Positions 13 through 4,465 of a stretch of DNA of 4,465 bases are shown here, piece by piece. Location: the NCBI GenBank assembly GCA_000004985.1, contig GG739186.1. One strand, written 5' to 3'. A program made the translations under genes and the position numbers. How positions within the stretch are numbered: position 1 is the stretch's first letter; each line of letters opens with the position of its first letter. The notes under the pieces were generated by a model. It was given only the letters and a program-made list of their open reading frames with translations, was not told the DNA's origin and made no database searches. This stretch comes from Naegleria gruberi (lineage: Eukaryota).

Positions 13-330
13 CTAGGTAGTATTACCAGAAATGAAAGTATAGGATGGTTCTTCTCCATCACTTGAACCTAGAGTATAGAATGAAAGGGAAGAGTTAGCA
101 ACCATAGTATTGGCATTATTATTCAAATCATAGTTGAGAGTTGTCAAACATTGACAAGAATCACCTGTGGTTGAACAAAAACCTCTACCATTACAAGAAT
201 CTGGACCTGTACATTCAAATGCATTAGTATTAGAAGCCAAAATGGACAAGATAACTAGGGTCACAAGCATACAAACAGTAACCTTACAGAGTTTTACTCT
301 GTTAGAGACCATACAGTAGTCAAGAGACAT
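13..330 (-). CDS. Small secreted cysteine-rich protein of 105 aa, single exon. Predicted signal peptide (MVSNRVKLCKVTVCMLVTLVILSILASNTNA) followed by an EGF-like Cys cluster CTGPDSCNGRGFCSTTGDSCQC and an N/S/T-rich tail with N-x-S/T sequons.
   Basis: ATG at 328-330 (read on the minus strand) preceded by an A-run (caaacaaaaaaATG). TAG stop at 13-15. Hydrophobic h-region followed by small residues (SNTNA|FE). Spacing C-x5-C-x5-C-x6-C-x-C is typical of EGF/laminin-type modules. Confidence 0.45.
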   Translation of the reverse strand: MSLDYCMVSNRVKLCKVTVCMLVTLVILSILASNTNAFECTGPDSCNGRGFCSTTGDSCQCLTTLNYDLNNNANTMVANSSLSFYTLGSSDGEEPSYTFISGNTT

Positions 331-1303
331 TTTTTTGTTTGAATTGTAGTAATAGCATCCAAAGTGACCTTTTTAACTTGTTTGTGAATTTTGTATCTCG
401 AGTATCGAATAAAGTTTTGTATGTTGTAAACTATTGCTTACTTGATGGTGATAGATGACATTAAGATACTACTAACATGAACTAATCTACTCGCGAATCT
501 TCCATTTATGGAATGCAATACAAAACTGTAAGAGAAATTGCTGATACAATATTATCCAAGGATATTTGTTTTGGAATTTAGAGAACCATTCTGGAATTTT
601 AATGTTCATAGTAATGCATCTCGTCTCCAATACACTTCAGTCGATAATTAGATTGAATGATAAATTGGTTAACAGATAGTGATTAAACTTCTTTTGAACC
701 AATTGCTCTTAATTGTTGATTCCTCGATGGTTTCAACAGCAATATTCGTTGAAAATGTAGCGTACGAAGAATAATCGTGATGGGAAGAGATTGCAGATAT
801 CACCAATTAGATGAACACGGCCACAATATTCAAAATGCATTATTTAAATTAAATATTGTGATGAAGAGATGCATCTGAGATTAATCTCTTGAATGTTGAT
901 GAGCAGTGAGACACTGCTTGTTAAAGTTGAACTCTCTCTTGATGACGATGATTGAATTGGATACAATAGACGAAGCCGCCATCTGGTGAAGTAAGTAAAA
1001 TAAAATTAATAATGATGAAAGTCTATTTAATGCATTGTTTTTTCTTGATTTTGAAAACGCAACGGTTTTTGGTAAATGCCCCGAATGAGTTGCTGTGGTA
1101 CCATTAATTGGTGCAAAATGACTTTATTTTTAATGGAGTTTGCTCTATAAATTTTCAATTTTGCTGACCACTTTTGGTCGTTTTTAAATTTTCATCGCTG
1201 TACAGATTAGGTGGCAAGGCTTAAATTTTAAAATTGACCAAAATTTGGTACCTAATTTTCAAAATTAAATTATTGGACCAAAGTTTTTTAATAAATTAAT
1301 AAG

Positions 1304-1309
1304 TTTATT
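1304..1309 (-). terminator. Candidate poly(A) signal AATAAA for the minus-strand gene ending at 1488.
   Basis: TTTATT on the plus strand reads AATAAA on the minus strand, about 180 nt downstream of the stop codon. AT-rich context means many chance matches. Confidence 0.25.
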
Positions 1310-1323
1310 ATTTCACAATGTCC

Positions 1324-1349
1324 TGACTTGGAGAAATTTCTCCAAGTCA
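1324..1349. repeat. Perfect 26-bp palindrome TGACTTGGAGAAA|TTTCTCCAAGTCA.
   Basis: Checked base by base: 13 complementary pairs around the centre at 1336/1337 and no spacer. It lies about 140 nt downstream of the 1488 stop codon and about 15 nt before a minus-strand AATAAA (1309-1304). Confidence 0.9.
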
Positions 1350-1487
1350 AGATTACATTCAAGATTTCAACAAAGGAGCATGATAACTCTGCATTTAAAT
1401 CCATTCCAGATGATAGGTATTACAATTATAGTACATCAACAAGTATCAGATTTCAACTATCTATTAAAGTAACTTACTAGAAGAAAA

Positions 1488-1689
1488 TCATCTCAATAGC
1501 ATTGCATGACATTTAAGTAAGGGTCTAACAATAAGCTTTTCATTGATATCCTTGACGAGCACAGCAGGACCAAGCACTTCACTAGGGGAAATGGAGTGGC
1601 TGTCATTGGCCAACACACCATTCCTAATAGGCCTCACATGAATGTAAAACTTGTCTTGCATTTCAAGGAACTTGACAATGACAGCAAAA
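1488..1689 (-). CDS. Terminal exon of a small gene, encoding an ATG12-like ubiquitin-like domain: SFAVIVKFLEMQDKFYIHVRPIRNGVLANDSHSISPSEVLGPAVLVKDINEKLIVRPLLKCHAMLLR*.
   Basis: Acceptor ...cattatAG at 1690-1691 (minus strand) after a pyrimidine/AT-rich tract. The open frame runs to a TGA at 1488-1490. Remembered ATG12 blocks are present: SFAMVILFLKRRL / KFANVIDFLRRQL (compare SFAVIVKFLEMQ), LFIYVN (FYIHV), SPDQEV (SPSEV) and KLVLHYCKSQAWG (KLIVRPLLKCHAM). Coding-region GC is much higher than the flanking AT-rich DNA. Confidence 0.4.
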
Positions 1690-1910
1690 CTATAATGATG
1701 AATTACTAGTATAATATTACAAAAAACATACCTAAATGTTATTGAGCATTTTGAATATTTCATAATAAACATTTTACCTCATTGTTTACATATGAATCAA
1801 ATACATTAAACTTACCTGAAATATGAATGAATTAATATCAATGAATACCAACTAATGAATTCCGTTATGTCAATTCTTGATGAATAAATTATAATGAATA
1901 GAAAACATAC

Positions 1911-2083
1911 CTATTGTTTGCGAGTTGAACAATGTTATTGGGGTGGAGAGTTTTCTCCATAACAAGAGCCATCCAACATGGTGTGAACGATCTTACCCTT
2001 TGAGTGTAAACACTGATACAGTTGAATGATACATTAAAGATATACGTACATGCTTGTTGATTAGGTCCAGCACTTTGGTCCAT
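1911..2083 (-). CDS. Putative first exon of the same gene: MDQSAGPNQQ...NIVQLANN, 57 codons plus 2 nt. It is joined to 1689 by a 221-nt GTATGT...TATAG intron at 1690-1910.
   Basis: Consensus donor GTATGT at 1910-1905 (minus strand). The phase-2 end (AAT AG) plus the T at 1689 gives AGT, keeping the frame. The ATG at 2081-2083 lacks the A-rich context seen at other starts here, and the exon begins 10 bp from a transposon-fragment boundary, so the true 5' structure is uncertain. Confidence 0.3.
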
Positions 2084-2092
2084 CTCCTTCTT

Positions 2093-2466
2093 GTAATGAA
2101 CAGTCTTGTTTAGACTTTCATCATTATCATGCTGATATGAAAATTAGGAATGGATTCAAAAGCTCGATCAAAACCTCCATTATCATCAAACAACTCACCG
2201 AGTGATGTCGAATTACTTCCTCTTCTTGCTGATCCATTATGAATTGCTCCTCATCATCTGATTCCGAGGATGAGAATGAAGCTCTCAATCAAATCATCCT
2301 CCATTAAATCTTCCTCATCAACTTATTCACTCCTTGTTGTTGTTTGATAAGGAATTTATTGCCTATCAATTTTTGATATATATTTTCAAACGTATGGAGC
2401 GTTCCTTTGTGTTGGTGTTTTCCCCATTTTTTTAGGCTTTGAAATAAGGCGCTAAGATCCACTCAC
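2093..2466 (-). mobile_element. Decayed 5'-terminal fragment (solo end) of the same En/Spm-like transposon: terminus, promoter, ATG and the start of exon 1, with indels and a premature stop (MGKTPTQRNAPYV*).
   Basis: Aligns with 3640-4081 at roughly 85% identity. This includes the shared terminus ...GATCCACTCAC (ending at 2466 here and 4081 in the long copy), the cctaaaaaaATGGGGAAA start (ATG at 2427, minus strand) and the ACTCACC (GTGAGT) site at 2193-2198. Confidence 0.8.
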
Positions 2467-2713
2467 TCATACTGATGATCGCAATGAGGTAGATGAAGAT
2501 GGATCGAATAAGAAGCTTATTGATGTATCATCACCTTATGATGATAGCAGTCGGGTGACAGCTGTTTATGTGTAAATAACATCATTATTACTATTCATCT
2601 ATTGTTAGTGTTAATATACTCAATTCATATCCATTCATATCATATGATTTCATAGCTTGATAACCATTATTAAGAACAGTGTGGTCCACATTTTTGCTCT
2701 AGATTTAAAATTA

Positions 2714-2763
2714 NNNNNNNNNNNNNNNNNNNNNNNNNNNNNNNNNNNNNNNNNNNNNNNNNN
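2714..2763. other. Scaffold/assembly gap: run of 50 N.
   Basis: Literal N characters. GGCCGC follows immediately at 2764-2769. Confidence 0.99.
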
Positions 2764-3744
2764 GGCCGCTGCTTTGGAATCTTGTTCTTCACGAGGAGTA
2801 CACTTGTATTGCTTGTTTGTAATAGTGAAAACCCATCTACGTTGAATACTGTGACCACTATTTAAACAAAATCCACAACCAAATAAACCATTAAAAGCAC
2901 TCATGCAATATGCAATAGCCTTTGCTGGCAAATCACATACTATTGAACAAAAGTTCACAAACCATGAACCATTATTGATAATCACTTCATTATTCTCCAT
3001 ACTCTTGACGTCTTGTACAAAATAGTCGAGAAAGACATTTCCTGGTTTTGTCTTTCCGTACCAAAGACCAACCATAAAGAGATTTTCCGGATTATATCTA
3101 ACCTCTGGTGGCAAGTTTTGAACAACAACATAAATAGGCCACATGCTCCATTTAGAGGATGAAAAAGGACTCGCTCCATCCCAATTCACCTGCAAAAAGA
3201 TTTGATTTGAATTGCCATGAAGTTGAATCTTATCCTTAATAACAGAACCATCGAATACGTCCATAATATTATCAGTATCATTCCGTCTAGTTTTGTAATA
3301 TTCTAATTGCTCACAATAGATAGGATCTTTACATCTTTCTTCAAATTGCTCCCGAAGACTATGATAAAGAAAGTGTGTTGTATTTTTCCTTCCACATGAA
3401 GAGCATGTTGAATTATTGCAACAACATTCACAATGTTTACAATAATATACTCGTTGCATTGAGTCCATGAATGGAATAAATTTGAAAAGCTGTGTTCTTG
3501 TCTTTGGAATGATATTATCTTGAGGGAGTAGTAAATTGAGTGTTTTGAGTAGAATGTCAATCTTACTAGTACCGATTTTCATTGTAATTATGAGAAAGAG
3601 AATAACGGTGATAAATGAACCCAAACTCAATGAAGCATCATTATGAATAGGCTTGTTTAGACTTTCATCATTATCAACATGAAAATTAGGAATGGTTTCA
3701 AAAGCTTGATCAAAGCCTCCAATATCATCAAACACACTCACCAA
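2764..3744 (-). CDS. Transposase core (Transposase_21 / plant TNP2-like). The open frame continues into the gap, so the C-terminal part is missing.
   Basis: LLPQDNIIPK...YYCKHCECCCNNSTCSSCGRK (about 3388-3441) matches the TNP2 pattern LPxGNxLPK...C..C......C..CG..R. IFLQVNWDGASPFSSSKWSMWPIYVVVQNLPPEVRYNPENLFMVGLWYGKTKPGN (about 3040-3198) matches DG..PF...S.WP.....NLPP..R....FL...IPGP..P. VCDLPAKAIAYCMSAFNGLFGCGFC matches the I.DFPA...LSGW...G..ACP.C block. The frame has no stop for 327 codons. The ORF track's 'M' at 3744 is a TTG, not ATG. Confidence 0.85.
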
Positions 3745-4033
3745 TAGATGCCGATCTGTTAAGATTTGCTTCTTCTTCCTCTTCTAGTTGATCCATTATG
3801 AATTCATCCTCATCATCTGATTCCGAGGTGTTATCAGAACCAATCTCGCTCTCAATCAAATCATCATCCACCATTAAATCTTCCTCATCTACTTCTGTTC
3901 TGAATTCAACTTCATCTTCATCACTTGTAGTTGTTGTTTGATAAAGAATTTCTTGCCCTAATTTTTCAGCCTTTCGTTTTGATCGATATTTTCGAACGTA
4001 TTGAGCGTTCTTTTGTGTTGGTATTTTCCCCAT
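3728..4033 (-). CDS. N-terminal exon/ORF of the transposon protein (101 aa). It has a basic NLS-like stretch RKYRSKRKAEK followed by a strongly acidic D/E/S-rich region.
   Basis: ATG at 4031-4033 (minus strand) in the context cctaaaaaaATGGGG. The ORF ends at a TGA at 3728-3730, just after a consensus GTGAGT at 3741-3736. It is out of frame (+1) with the transposase core ORF. Confidence 0.6.
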   Translation of the reverse strand: MGKIPTQKNAQYVRKYRSKRKAEKLGQEILYQTTTTSDEDEVEFRTEVDEEDLMVDDDLIESEIGSDNTSESDDEDEFIMDQLEEEEEANLNRSASIGECV

Positions 4034-4117
4034 TTTTTTAGGCTTTGAAATAAGGCGCTAAATATTACAAGATCCACTCACAATAGTAACAAATTGATCC
4101 AATAATAGCCAAAAAAA

Positions 4118-4465
4118 ATGTCAAAACTCAATTCGCAAGAAAGTGATAACTCTGAATCATCTTCACCAAATATCAAGCCTTCACAAAATATCACTACAAC
4201 CAAAAAGAAGAAACAAACATCTACTAGAAAGAAGCCAGCATCATCAAGTGAGTCTTCATCAACAACAAAATCGCCAACAAAGGCTTCATCAACCTCACCA
4301 AAAAAATCACCACCAAAGGCTTCAAAAGATGTCAACACTGTACCAAAAGAGTCTTCCTCCTCTTCTTCTTCTTCTACTTCTTCTGGAGGTGTGAAAAGAA
4401 AGCAAGATGATTCTAGTAGAATTGTTAAACTTCTAAAACTTACAAAAACTAACAAGACACGTCTT
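4118..4465 (+). CDS. 5' part (116 codons, no stop in the window) of a Ser/Thr/Lys-rich basic low-complexity protein. It carries SPKK/SPxK minor-groove-type motifs (KSPTKASSTSPKKSPPKAS) and a poly-Ser run.
   Basis: ATG at 4118 in the context gccaaaaaaaATGTCA. The frame stays open to the window edge. Codons are strongly A/T-ending (TCA, CCA, ACA, AAA). It is not in the supplied ORF track because it has no stop in the window. Low complexity limits confidence. Confidence 0.45.
   Translation, partial: MSKLNSQESDNSESSSPNIKPSQNITTTKKKKQTSTRKKPASSSESSSTTKSPTKASSTSPKKSPPKASKDVNTVPKESSSSSSSSTSSGGVKRKQDDSSRIVKLLKLTKTNKTRL

What the first reader, a model, noticed from the sequence alone, without database searches (positions are those of the whole stretch)
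4050..4120. Transposon terminus is not CACTA and sits 36 bp from a host start codon
Both copies end at the same base after ...GATCCACTCAC (4081 and 2466). On the element's coding strand the terminus therefore reads 5'-GTGAGTGGATC..., not the canonical 5'-CACTA/G of En/Spm elements. The intact copy abuts the promoter of the divergently transcribed SPKK-rich gene (ATG at 4118), so it may affect that gene's expression. The terminus may define a divergent lineage, or the true TIR may be a few bases inside the shared segment.
Basis: seen in the sequence. Interest (0 to 1): 0.5.

Follow-up and report, generated by a model that had tools for sequence, protein, structure and literature searches.

The report
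Internal deletion junction, not transposon end
The point where two decayed transposon copies stop matching is most likely an internal deletion scar in the short spacer between the element's own two back-to-back genes, while the real ends of this Naegleria transposon lineage lie elsewhere and read CCCGA rather than CACTA.

Summary
The window is a whole 4465-bp Naegleria gruberi scaffold carrying two decayed, same-strand copies of a TNP2/Transposase_21 (CACTA-superfamily) transposon. Copy A (2096-2466) and copy B (3643-4081) are 92% identical, both stop after GATCCACTCAC, and a + strand ATG sits 36 bp beyond 4081.

The interpretation does not hold. Three related metagenome loci show the same layout: the transposase and a second gene are transcribed back to back across a 134-136-bp spacer. 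In the full-length relative L017, both genes lie between inverted CCCGAGTAA ends. In L001/L003, homology runs through the second gene and stops sharply at (A)CCCGAAC, with unrelated flanks beyond.

In the window, CCCGA occurs only three times. Two copies face inward around copy A (1080 and 2555). The left one is followed by the lineage's 17-nt subterminal motif (0/200 shuffles) and lies downstream of the transposase C-terminus (E=1.7e-7).

So 2466/4081 is best read as an internal deletion junction of a non-autonomous copy. The "host" SPKK gene is most likely the element's own second ORF. The lineage's ends are indeed not CACTA, but at a different place and with a different sequence. This is an ordinary finding of modest interest to transposon specialists.

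The parts
1080..1087 (+). Left end of copy A (the end downstream of the transposase 3' end): 5'-CCCGAATG, read inward
   Evidence: CCCGA occurs only 3 times in the window on both strands. The same pentamer starts both inverted ends of L017 and marks the L001/L003 homology border.
1158..1174 (+). Subterminal motif ATTTTGCTGACCACTTT, 78 nt inside the left end. A weaker second copy lies at 1242-1258.
   Evidence: The pattern ATTTTGCKKCCNAMTTT was defined from L001, L003 and L017 only. It hits the window once with <=1 mismatch, against 0/200 shuffles. The second copy has 3 mismatches. In every case the motif faces inward from the nearest CCCGA.
1491..1745 (-). Transposase C-terminal end of copy A (...LKCHAMLLR, then stop)
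   Evidence: tblastn of the L017 transposase tail gives E=1.7e-7. Both proteins end LKCH(S/A)(L/M)LLR-stop.
1746..2095 (.). Unassigned stretch inside copy A, between the C-terminal piece and the inner deletion junction
   Evidence: No significant match to the C-terminal halves of P0008, P0005 or L006, or to a motif profile.
2096..2466 (-). Copy A 5' part: decayed N-terminal coding sequence (ATG at 2427) plus 39 bp of the intergenic spacer, ending in GATCCACTCAC
   Evidence: 91.8% identity to 3643-4081. tblastn of the copy B N-terminus supports it.
2467..2555 (-). Candidate right-terminal 89 bp of copy A, ending (read inward on the minus strand) 5'-CCCGACTG. The deletion junction is 2466/2467.
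   Evidence: CCCGA lies on the minus strand at 2551-2555 and faces the one at 1080. It matches the left end at 7 of 8 bases. No subterminal motif is present, so the assignment is inferred, not shown.
2714..2763 (.). Assembly gap (run of N) that cuts off the rest of copy B
2764..4033 (-). Copy B transposase, N-terminal ~420 codons, with a +1 frameshift near 3737
   Evidence: Pfam Transposase_21 scores 34.2 bits against a cut-off of 28.6, with a weaker DUF1258 hit. Identity is 45-49% to P0008, 42-46% to P0002 and 59-62% to P0003. The frame break is shown.
4034..4117 (.). 84-bp spacer between the two divergent start codons. It contains the 9-bp indel (4062-4070), the 11-mer (4071-4081) and the position of the copy A breakpoint (4081/4082).
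   Evidence: Relatives have 134-136-bp spacers in the same place. The two ATGs sit in mirrored 14-nt contexts (I17). Similarity to the L002 upstream region continues weakly past 4081 (37/5000 shuffles).
4118..4465 (+). First 116 codons of the divergent second ORF (S/T/K/P-rich), cut by the scaffold end. Most likely the element's ORF2.
   Evidence: Its position and orientation match the ORF2 of L001, L003 and L017. It has no homologue in 5.8 billion proteins. There is a weak motif match, RIVKLLKLTKTN versus KIVPLLKL..KT (hhalign E=0.07).

Best explanation
The scaffold carries relics of a cut-and-paste DNA transposon of the TNP2/Transposase_21 (CACTA-Mirage-Chapaev) group. A full element of this lineage has two genes transcribed away from each other across a short shared spacer of 84-136 bp: the transposase and a fast-evolving second ORF. 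Both genes lie between short inverted ends that begin 5'-CCCGA, and a conserved 17-nt motif repeats just inside the ends.

Copy B (2764-4465) is the middle of such an element: transposase 5' part, spacer, and the start of ORF2.

Copy A (about 1080-2555) is a short, non-autonomous deletion derivative. It keeps the end downstream of the transposase, the transposase C-terminus, and the N-terminus plus 39 bp of spacer. It has lost the catalytic core (junction 2095/2096). It has also lost everything from the middle of the spacer through ORF2 to about 89 bp from the other end (junction 2466/2467).

The 'shared terminus' is therefore simply where copy A's second deletion begins.

Shown: the family assignment, the shared boundary, the two-gene layout and CCCGA ends in relatives, and the left end and C-terminus of copy A.

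Inferred: that the window's ORF2 is homologous to the relatives' ORF2, that 2555 is copy A's right end, and that the spacer acts as a bidirectional promoter.
For: (1) Family: Transposase_21 scores above Pfam's cut-off. The exhaustive search found 6216 relatives. Distant relatives carry Transposase_21 plus DUF1258, and P0008 also DUF4218.

(2) Layout in relatives: L001, L003 and L017/18/19 all have a 420-473-aa ORF transcribed divergently 134-136 bp upstream of the transposase ATG.

(3) Ends in relatives: in L017, CCCGAGTAA occurs exactly twice, inverted, at 676 and 6564, and encloses both genes. An independent Logan contig (L019) stops exactly at 6564. L001 and L003 are 88% identical through ORF2 and about 330 bp beyond it. 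The match then stops at (A)CCCGAAC with unrelated flanks, which in L001 carry an NHL-repeat gene. Two 47-53-nt subterminal direct repeats lie just inside that border.

(4) In the window: CCCGA occurs 3 times, and two copies face inward at 1080 and 2555 around copy A. The subterminal motif lies at 1158-1174 (0/200 shuffles). The transposase C-terminus lies at 1491-1745 (E=1.7e-7).

(5) Deletion derivatives occur in this lineage. L002, the closest relative, joins N-terminal residues 1-250 directly to the C-terminal NVHHLVHL region.

(6) The boundary itself has no inverted partner. It lies only 48 bp from the ATG.
Against: No other N. gruberi copy could be retrieved, so the ORF2-side end of this particular family was not seen. 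Sequence similarity between the window ORF2 and the relatives' ORF2 is not significant (BLASTP E=0.49; hhalign E=0.07). The right end at 2555 rests on a 7/8 match and has no subterminal motif. No consistent target-site duplication was found. Similarity to L002 beyond 4081 is modest (z=3.2, against z=2.25 for the copy A flank used as a control). L002 itself lacks the 11-mer. The relatives are 42-49% identical metagenome sequences from unidentified organisms.
Confidence: 0.72

Rival explanations
1. The boundary is an internal breakpoint and the divergent ORF is the element's own gene, but copy A is not a tidy deletion derivative. Instead it was truncated at 2466 by an unrelated rearrangement or insertion. 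On this reading 2467-2713 is foreign DNA and the CCCGA at 2555 is a coincidence.
For: No subterminal motif lies in 2467-2555. That segment shows no similarity to the terminal regions of L001, L003 or L017. One CCCGA on the right strand in 247 bp has a chance probability of a few per cent (rate). No target-site duplication was found.
Against: The CCCGA faces inward and matches the left end at 7 of 8 positions. Deletion derivatives that keep both ends are the usual fate of cut-and-paste elements (established knowledge, e.g. dSpm), and L002 is one.
Confidence: 0.18
2. One reading: 4081/2466 is the true 5' terminus of a single-gene En/Spm-like lineage with a non-CACTA end (5'-GTGAGTGGATC), inserted 36 bp upstream of a host gene.
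For: Two copies stop matching at exactly the same base, with unrelated sequence beyond. The SPKK ORF shows no significant similarity to the relatives' ORF2.
Against: No inverted partner exists in the window, although copy A's other end is present. That would leave only 48 bp for a TIR, promoter and 5' UTR. Three related families have the same divergent ORF inside the mobile unit, with ends that read CCCGA. The ORF has no homologue in any proteome searched, which is unexpected for a conserved host gene. The L002 upstream region shows weak collinear similarity past the boundary.
Confidence: 0.07
3. Assembly artefact: the two 'copies' are a mis-join or collapsed repeat on a tiny, unplaced, gap-containing scaffold, and the boundary has no biological meaning.
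For: The scaffold is only 4465 bp, contains an N gap, and carries a chimeric gene model.
Against: The copies differ by 8% substitutions and 17 indels, so they are distinct genomic sequences, not duplicated reads. Copy A has its own coherent end structure.
Confidence: 0.03

Closest known systems
En/Spm (CACTA) elements of plants, TNP2-type transposase (Pfam PF02992, with DUF4218)
   Same: The window and its relatives hit Transposase_21 above threshold, and P0008 gives a DUF4218-like hit. The C-x2-C motif CGFC follows the second acidic residue (translation). Subterminal repeats are present. There is a second element-encoded protein. Short internally deleted derivatives occur, like dSpm (the dSpm comparison is from established knowledge).
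   Different: The ends read 5'-CCCGA...TCGGG-3', not 5'-CACTA...TAGTG-3'. The TIR is only about 9-12 bp. The second ORF is transcribed divergently from a <=136-bp spacer, whereas in maize En/Spm it comes from the same transcription unit (established knowledge). No 3-bp target-site duplication could be shown.
CMC / CMCT clade (CACTA-Mirage-Chapaev-Transib, Plavaka etc.)
   Same: The transposase fold family is the same. The clade is described as having 2-5-bp TSDs and mostly 5'-CA..TG-3' ends, with exceptions such as PlavakaA (5'-TGT..ACA-3') (PMC12730594). The DUF1258 hits point to the animal and protist side of the clade. CMC-EnSpm repeats are already reported in Naegleria lovaniensis (PMC6125883).
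   Different: The CCCGA ends do not fit the 5'-CA rule. I could not check Repbase, so I cannot say whether this Naegleria family is already catalogued.
Kyakuja-Dileera-Zisupton (KDZ) transposons
   Same: They are large eukaryotic DDE elements with Cys-rich regions and sometimes accessory genes, and they are often linked to TET/JBP genes (PMC12730594). In L017 a Tet_JBP-like ORF lies 85 bp outside the left end.
   Different: No KDZ Pfam domain is hit. The only families found are Transposase_21 and DUF1258. The Tet_JBP ORF lies outside the inverted ends.

Membership tests
CACTA/En-Spm (CMC) DNA transposons | TNP2-type DDE transposase (Pfam Transposase_21) | tested here: met
   The window scores 34.2 bits against a cut-off of 28.6. 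P0002 scores 43 bits and P0008 42 bits.
CACTA/En-Spm (CMC) DNA transposons | [quoted passage not shown] | tested here: inconclusive
   C-x2-C (GCGFC) is present in copy B (translation). The H motif region is missing from the window. Relative P0008 has NFHHLLHL there. The catalytic residues were not mapped rigorously.
CACTA/En-Spm (CMC) DNA transposons | Termini 5'-CACTA (or at least 5'-CA/CAC ... TG/GTG-3') | tested here: not met
The ends inferred here read 5'-CCCGA in the window, L017 and L001/L003.
CACTA/En-Spm (CMC) DNA transposons | Terminal inverted repeats | tested here: met
   In L017, CCCGAGTAA(A/T)TT is inverted at 676 and 6564 (11 of 12 bases), the only two occurrences. In the window, CCCGAATG and CCCGACTG match at 7/8, which is weak on its own.
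CACTA/En-Spm (CMC) DNA transposons | 2-5-bp target-site duplication | tested here: inconclusive
   The L017 flanks are CTG and GCC. The window flanks allow a 2-bp TG only if the left end is set at 1079. No reading is consistent across loci.
CACTA/En-Spm (CMC) DNA transposons | Subterminal repeats near the ends | tested here: met
   L001 and L003 each have two 47-53-nt direct repeats 70 nt apart. The shared 17-nt motif is in L001, L003 and L017 and in the window at 1158-1174.
Transposon terminus at 4081/2466 (the claim itself) | An inverted copy of the end sequence at the element's other end | tested here: not met
   GTGAGTGGATC with <=2 mismatches occurs only at the two boundaries, on the same strand. 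No inverted repeat involves 4050-4117 apart from the two start-codon contexts.
Transposon terminus at 4081/2466 (the claim itself) | The equivalent position in related elements is also an end, with unrelated flank beyond it | tested here: not met
   In L001, L003 and L017 the DNA upstream of the transposase ATG is a spacer leading to ORF2. The ends lie 1.5-1.7 kb further out.
Host gene (status of the SPKK-rich ORF) | Homologues in other genomes, or a copy independent of the element | tested here: not met
   No protein scores E<=0.1 among 5.8 billion. The deposited N. gruberi annotation has no model on this strand. Independence from the element could not be tested without the genome.
KDZ transposons | KDZ transposase domain | tested here: not met
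   Only Transposase_21 and DUF1258 were hit at E<=1.

The most novel reading that the evidence does not exclude
Naegleria and related amoeboflagellates may host an undescribed sub-lineage of the CACTA-Mirage-Chapaev superfamily with three distinctive features. Its ends are 5'-CCCGA...TCGGG-3' with 9-12-bp TIRs, instead of 5'-CA...TG-3'. A conserved 17-nt subterminal motif (ATTTTGCKKCCNAMTTT) lies inside the ends. It also has an obligatory, very fast-evolving second gene (30% identity where the transposases are 60% identical), transcribed divergently from the transposase across a spacer of at most 136 bp.
Probability: 0.45. Interest if true: 0.35.

Novelty: new member of a known kind. Interest (0 to 1): 0.22.

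Why it matters
For genome annotation, it shows three things. XP_002668240.1 is a chimeric model built from transposon debris and an antisense ORF. The SPKK-rich ORF should not be scored as a host gene disturbed by an insertion. Homology borders between only two decayed copies are unsafe as terminus calls. For transposon biology, it gives a testable definition (ends, subterminal motif, two-gene layout) of a TNP2-type family in Heterolobosea that breaks the 5'-CA terminal rule of its superfamily. None of this touches a major open question.

Tried and rejected
(1) I searched for other N. gruberi copies. The exact-protein look-ups all failed: P0001, the 101-aa N-terminal ORF, the 94-aa C-terminal ORF and the 105-aa left-hand ORF are not on record. 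A 21-mer from the conserved 5' region had no match in JGI metagenomes.

(2) Viral contigs contain no relative.

(3) The eleven metagenome loci from the protein-pattern scan are 27-63% identical over the matched segment (the two highest over only 24-32 residues). Those compared with each other (L007-L012) are the same loci repeated across samples, at 99% identity. They gave no information on ends.

(4) I first read 1746-2143(-) as the transposase C-terminal NxH..H..GP.W region. BLAST, two profile searches and a shuffle test do not support this. Only 1491-1745 is supported.

(5) A local-alignment test of window 1040-1330 against the L001/L003 terminal regions was weak (10/300 and 20/300 shuffles). 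The motif-level test was decisive instead.

(6) The idea that copy A is nested in a third, inverted copy was not supported. The left flank 700-1079 gives a marginal collinear alignment to copy B (8/300), but the right flank 2556-2713 gives none.

(7) I looked for homology between the + strand open frame 2456-2577 and an ORF2 C-terminus. There is none, and the frame runs past the inferred end, so it is a chance open frame.

(8) No solved structure is a sequence relative of the transposase.

(9) GTGAGT at the boundary looks like a 5' splice site, but the possible introns are only 15-39 nt, so I rejected that idea.

Full report
SOURCE AND OBSERVATION. The window is an entire 4465-bp scaffold of Naegleria gruberi. 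Its transposase-like ORF is 99% identical to 'predicted protein, partial [Naegleria gruberi]' (XP_002668240.1 / EFC35496.1), whose only contig is 4465 bp long. The sequence is about 33% G+C and has a run of N at 2714-2763.

Copy A (2096-2466) and copy B (3643-4081) align with 336/366 identical bases (91.8%) and 17 indel runs. Both end in GATCCACTCAC. The next 60 nt are 25% identical, which is random. Copy B has a 9-bp insert (ATATTACAA, 4062-4070) just before the 11-mer. The + strand ATG is at 4118, 36 bp beyond 4081. The minus-strand transposase ATG is at 4033, only 48 bp inside.

WHAT THE ELEMENT IS. The minus-strand ORF 2764-3744 hits Pfam Transposase_21 (TNP2) at 34.2 bits, above the 28.6 cut-off, with a weaker DUF1258 hit. 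An exhaustive HMMER search found 6216 relatives at E<=0.001. Sampled distant relatives carry Transposase_21 plus DUF1258, and the closest long relative, P0008, also gives a DUF4218-like hit. So this is a CACTA-Mirage-Chapaev type cut-and-paste transposase.

Copy B is not intact. Relative to copy A and to relative L002 it has a 1-nt insertion near 3737 that breaks the frame, and it runs into the assembly gap. The deposited gene model is a chimera. It joins the antisense of 4225-4410, parts of copy B, parts of copy A and two further minus-strand ORFs.

THE BOUNDARY DOES NOT BEHAVE LIKE A TERMINUS. GTGAGTGGATC, even with two mismatches, occurs only at the two boundaries, both on the same strand. 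The only inverted repeat touching 4050-4120 is the mirrored context of the two start codons (I17). On the element strand no 5'-CA occurs anywhere in the shared segment upstream of position 4045.

RELATIVES SHOW THE REAL ARCHITECTURE. Word-based and exhaustive protein searches gave four close relatives. These are P0003 (59-62% identity), P0008 (49%) and P0002 (42-46%), plus P0007, an ORF2 homologue. Their contigs could be fetched.

In L001, L003 and L017 (L018 and L019 are 100% identical to L017), an ORF of 420-473 aa with an S/E/K-rich N-terminus is transcribed divergently. It starts 134-136 bp upstream of the transposase ATG. This is the same layout as the window's 84-bp spacer and SPKK-rich ORF.

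L001 and L003 come from different samples and are 88% identical over 1977 bp. The match runs through ORF2 and about 330 bp beyond its stop. It then ends sharply at (A)CCCGAACAC with unrelated flanks. The L001 flank encodes the start of an NHL-repeat protein. Just inside the border lie two 47-53-nt direct repeats 70 nt apart.

In the 6.7-kb contig L017, CCCGAGTAA occurs exactly twice, inverted, at 676 and 6564 (0.01 expected). The two copies enclose ORF2 (849-2228, minus strand), the spacer, the transposase (2365-4747, plus strand) and 1.8 kb more, with other genes outside. An independently assembled Logan contig (L019) stops at exactly base 6564. In these sister families, therefore, the mobile unit contains both genes and ends 5'-CCCGA.

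THE SAME END STRUCTURE IS PRESENT IN THE WINDOW, BUT NOT AT 4081.
- CCCGA occurs only three times on both strands: at 1080 (+), at 2551-2555 (-), and inside coding sequence at 3351.
- The first two face each other around copy A.
- A 17-nt pattern was defined only from the subterminal repeats of L001, L003 and L017 (ATTTTGCKKCCNAMTTT). It hits the window once with one mismatch, at 1158-1174, facing inward 78 nt from the CCCGA at 1080. None of 200 shuffles gave any hit. A weaker second copy lies 84 nt further in.
- Between this end and the 5' fragment, 1491-1745 (minus strand) encodes the transposase C-terminus. tblastn E is 1.7e-7 against the L017 tail, and both end ...LKCH(S/A)(L/M)LLR-stop.

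Copy A is therefore an internally deleted element whose transposase-distal end is at 1080. The stretch 1746-2095 could not be assigned. The right end at 2555 (CCCGACTG, against CCCGAATG on the left) is plausible but rests on little. By my estimate a few in a thousand such arrangements arise by chance, and no subterminal motif lies in the remaining 89 bp.

INTERPRETATION OF THE BOUNDARY. The simplest reading is that copy A carries two internal deletions. One removed the catalytic core (junction 2095/2096). The other removed everything from the middle of the spacer through ORF2 to about 89 bp from the other end (junction 2466/2467). The 'common end' is then just the left edge of the second deletion.

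Such derivatives exist in this lineage. L002, the closest relative, joins residues 1-250 directly to the C-terminal NVHHLVHL region (E=3.8e-10 to L014).

The L002 upstream region is clearly homologous to copy B inside the boundary (0/5000 shuffles). It is weakly and collinearly similar beyond it (37/5000, including the exact 11-mer CTATTATTGGA), although the copy A flank used as a control also scored somewhat high (168/5000).

THE 'HOST' GENE. The 116-codon ORF has no homologue at E<=0.1 among 5.8 billion proteins and no model on its strand in the deposited annotation. Direct similarity to the relatives' ORF2 is not significant (BLASTP E=0.49; hhalign E=0.07 for RIVKLLKLTKTN against the (K/H)(I/V)(V/L)PLL..(T/V)KT block).

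This is expected. ORF2 of L017 and L001 are only 30% identical while their transposases are 60% identical. The window transposase is more distant still, and only the low-complexity N-terminus of its ORF2 is on the scaffold. The assignment as element ORF2 therefore rests on position, orientation, spacer length and composition. It is an inference.

COMPARISON WITH WHAT IS KNOWN. The CMCT clade is described as sharing 5'-CA..TG-3' ends 'in most cases' and 2-5-bp TSDs, with exceptions such as PlavakaA (5'-TGT..ACA-3') (PMC12730594). [quoted passage not shown] CMC-EnSpm repeats are reported in N. lovaniensis (PMC6125883).

The lineage seen here meets the transposase, TIR and subterminal-repeat criteria. 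It fails the terminal-sequence criterion, and the TSD is unresolved. It differs from maize En/Spm in having its second gene in divergent orientation (that comparison is from established knowledge). I could not consult Repbase or Dfam, so prior description of this family cannot be excluded.

VERDICT. But the boundary is internal, the true ends read CCCGA elsewhere, and the adjacent ORF is most likely the element's own. The finding is ordinary transposon decay. The by-product, a definition of the ends and architecture of a heterolobosean TNP2 family, is of modest specialist interest.

Noticed in passing
window 1488-4410, minus strand: The deposited gene model XP_002668240.1 (444 aa) is a chimera. 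It splices the antisense strand of the SPKK-rich ORF to pieces of copy B, copy A and two further ORFs.
   Followed up: partly
window 3731-3745: Copy B has a 1-nt insertion (AAACACACTCACC, against AAACAACTCACC in copy A and the matching L002 sequence). It shifts the transposase frame, so the 'intact' copy is a pseudogene or carries a sequencing error.
   Followed up: yes
L017 10-591 (+), 85 bp outside the left CCCGA end: The ORF next to the element hits Pfam Tet_JBP (E=1e-7, 31.7 bits, just under the 34.9 cut-off). TET/JBP genes are known to travel with CMCT and KDZ transposons in fungi (PMC12730594). Here the ORF lies outside the inverted ends, so this may be coincidence.
   Followed up: partly
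L019 end = L017 6564; L018 and L019 both start at L017 286: A Logan contig stops at exactly the last base of the inferred right end. Two independent assemblies also begin at the same base inside the Tet_JBP-like ORF. This suggests assembly-graph branch points, meaning repeats or polymorphism, at both places.
   Followed up: no
window 1006-1025 (+) versus 3658-3677 and 2111-2127; wider 710-1054: A 20-nt inverted match (19/20, E=7e-4) to the DNDESL-coding part of both copies lies just outside copy A's left end. A long gappy alignment of 710-1054 to the copy B coding strand is marginal (8/300 shuffles). This may be a third, inverted, very decayed fragment.
   Followed up: partly
window 4031-4044 and 4107-4120: The two divergent start codons sit in mirrored contexts: AGCCTAAAAAAATG on the minus strand and AGCCAAAAAAAATG on the plus strand (I17). 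L002 has AAGCCTTAAAAAAAATG. An A-run before the ATG also precedes the flanking genes in L001 and L017, so it is probably the general start context of these organisms.
   Followed up: no
window 1321-1352: There is a near-perfect 32-nt palindrome, TCCTGACTTGGAGAAA/TTTCTCCAAGTCAAGA (I9, 94%, no spacer). It lies about 140 bp downstream of the copy A transposase stop, inside the terminal region. Its function is unknown.
   Followed up: no
L001 1799-1876, L003 272-351: The spacer between ORF2 and the transposase in this sister family holds two 32-34-nt direct repeats 46 nt apart. These are candidate regulatory or binding sites. Nothing comparable is seen in the window's 84-bp spacer, apart from GATCCA occurring twice (4071 and 4096).
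   Followed up: no
window 13-330 (-): A 105-aa ORF has a hydrophobic N-terminal stretch and a Cys-rich EGF-like pattern (weak Pfam EGF hits, E about 0.05-0.1). It is probably a real host gene at the scaffold edge and is unrelated to the element.
   Followed up: no
window 4076-4081 and 2461-2466, minus strand: The boundary begins with GTGAGT, the consensus 5' splice-site hexamer. Downstream AG sites would give 'introns' of only 15-39 nt, so this is judged a coincidence.
   Followed up: partly
L017 4397-4404 and P0008 residues about 455-465: The L017 transposase is split into two overlapping frames at 4397-4404. Where relatives have D.MH....EG, P0008 reads IDPMHQFSG. This full-length-looking copy may therefore also be inactive. 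The catalytic residues were not mapped rigorously.
   Followed up: no
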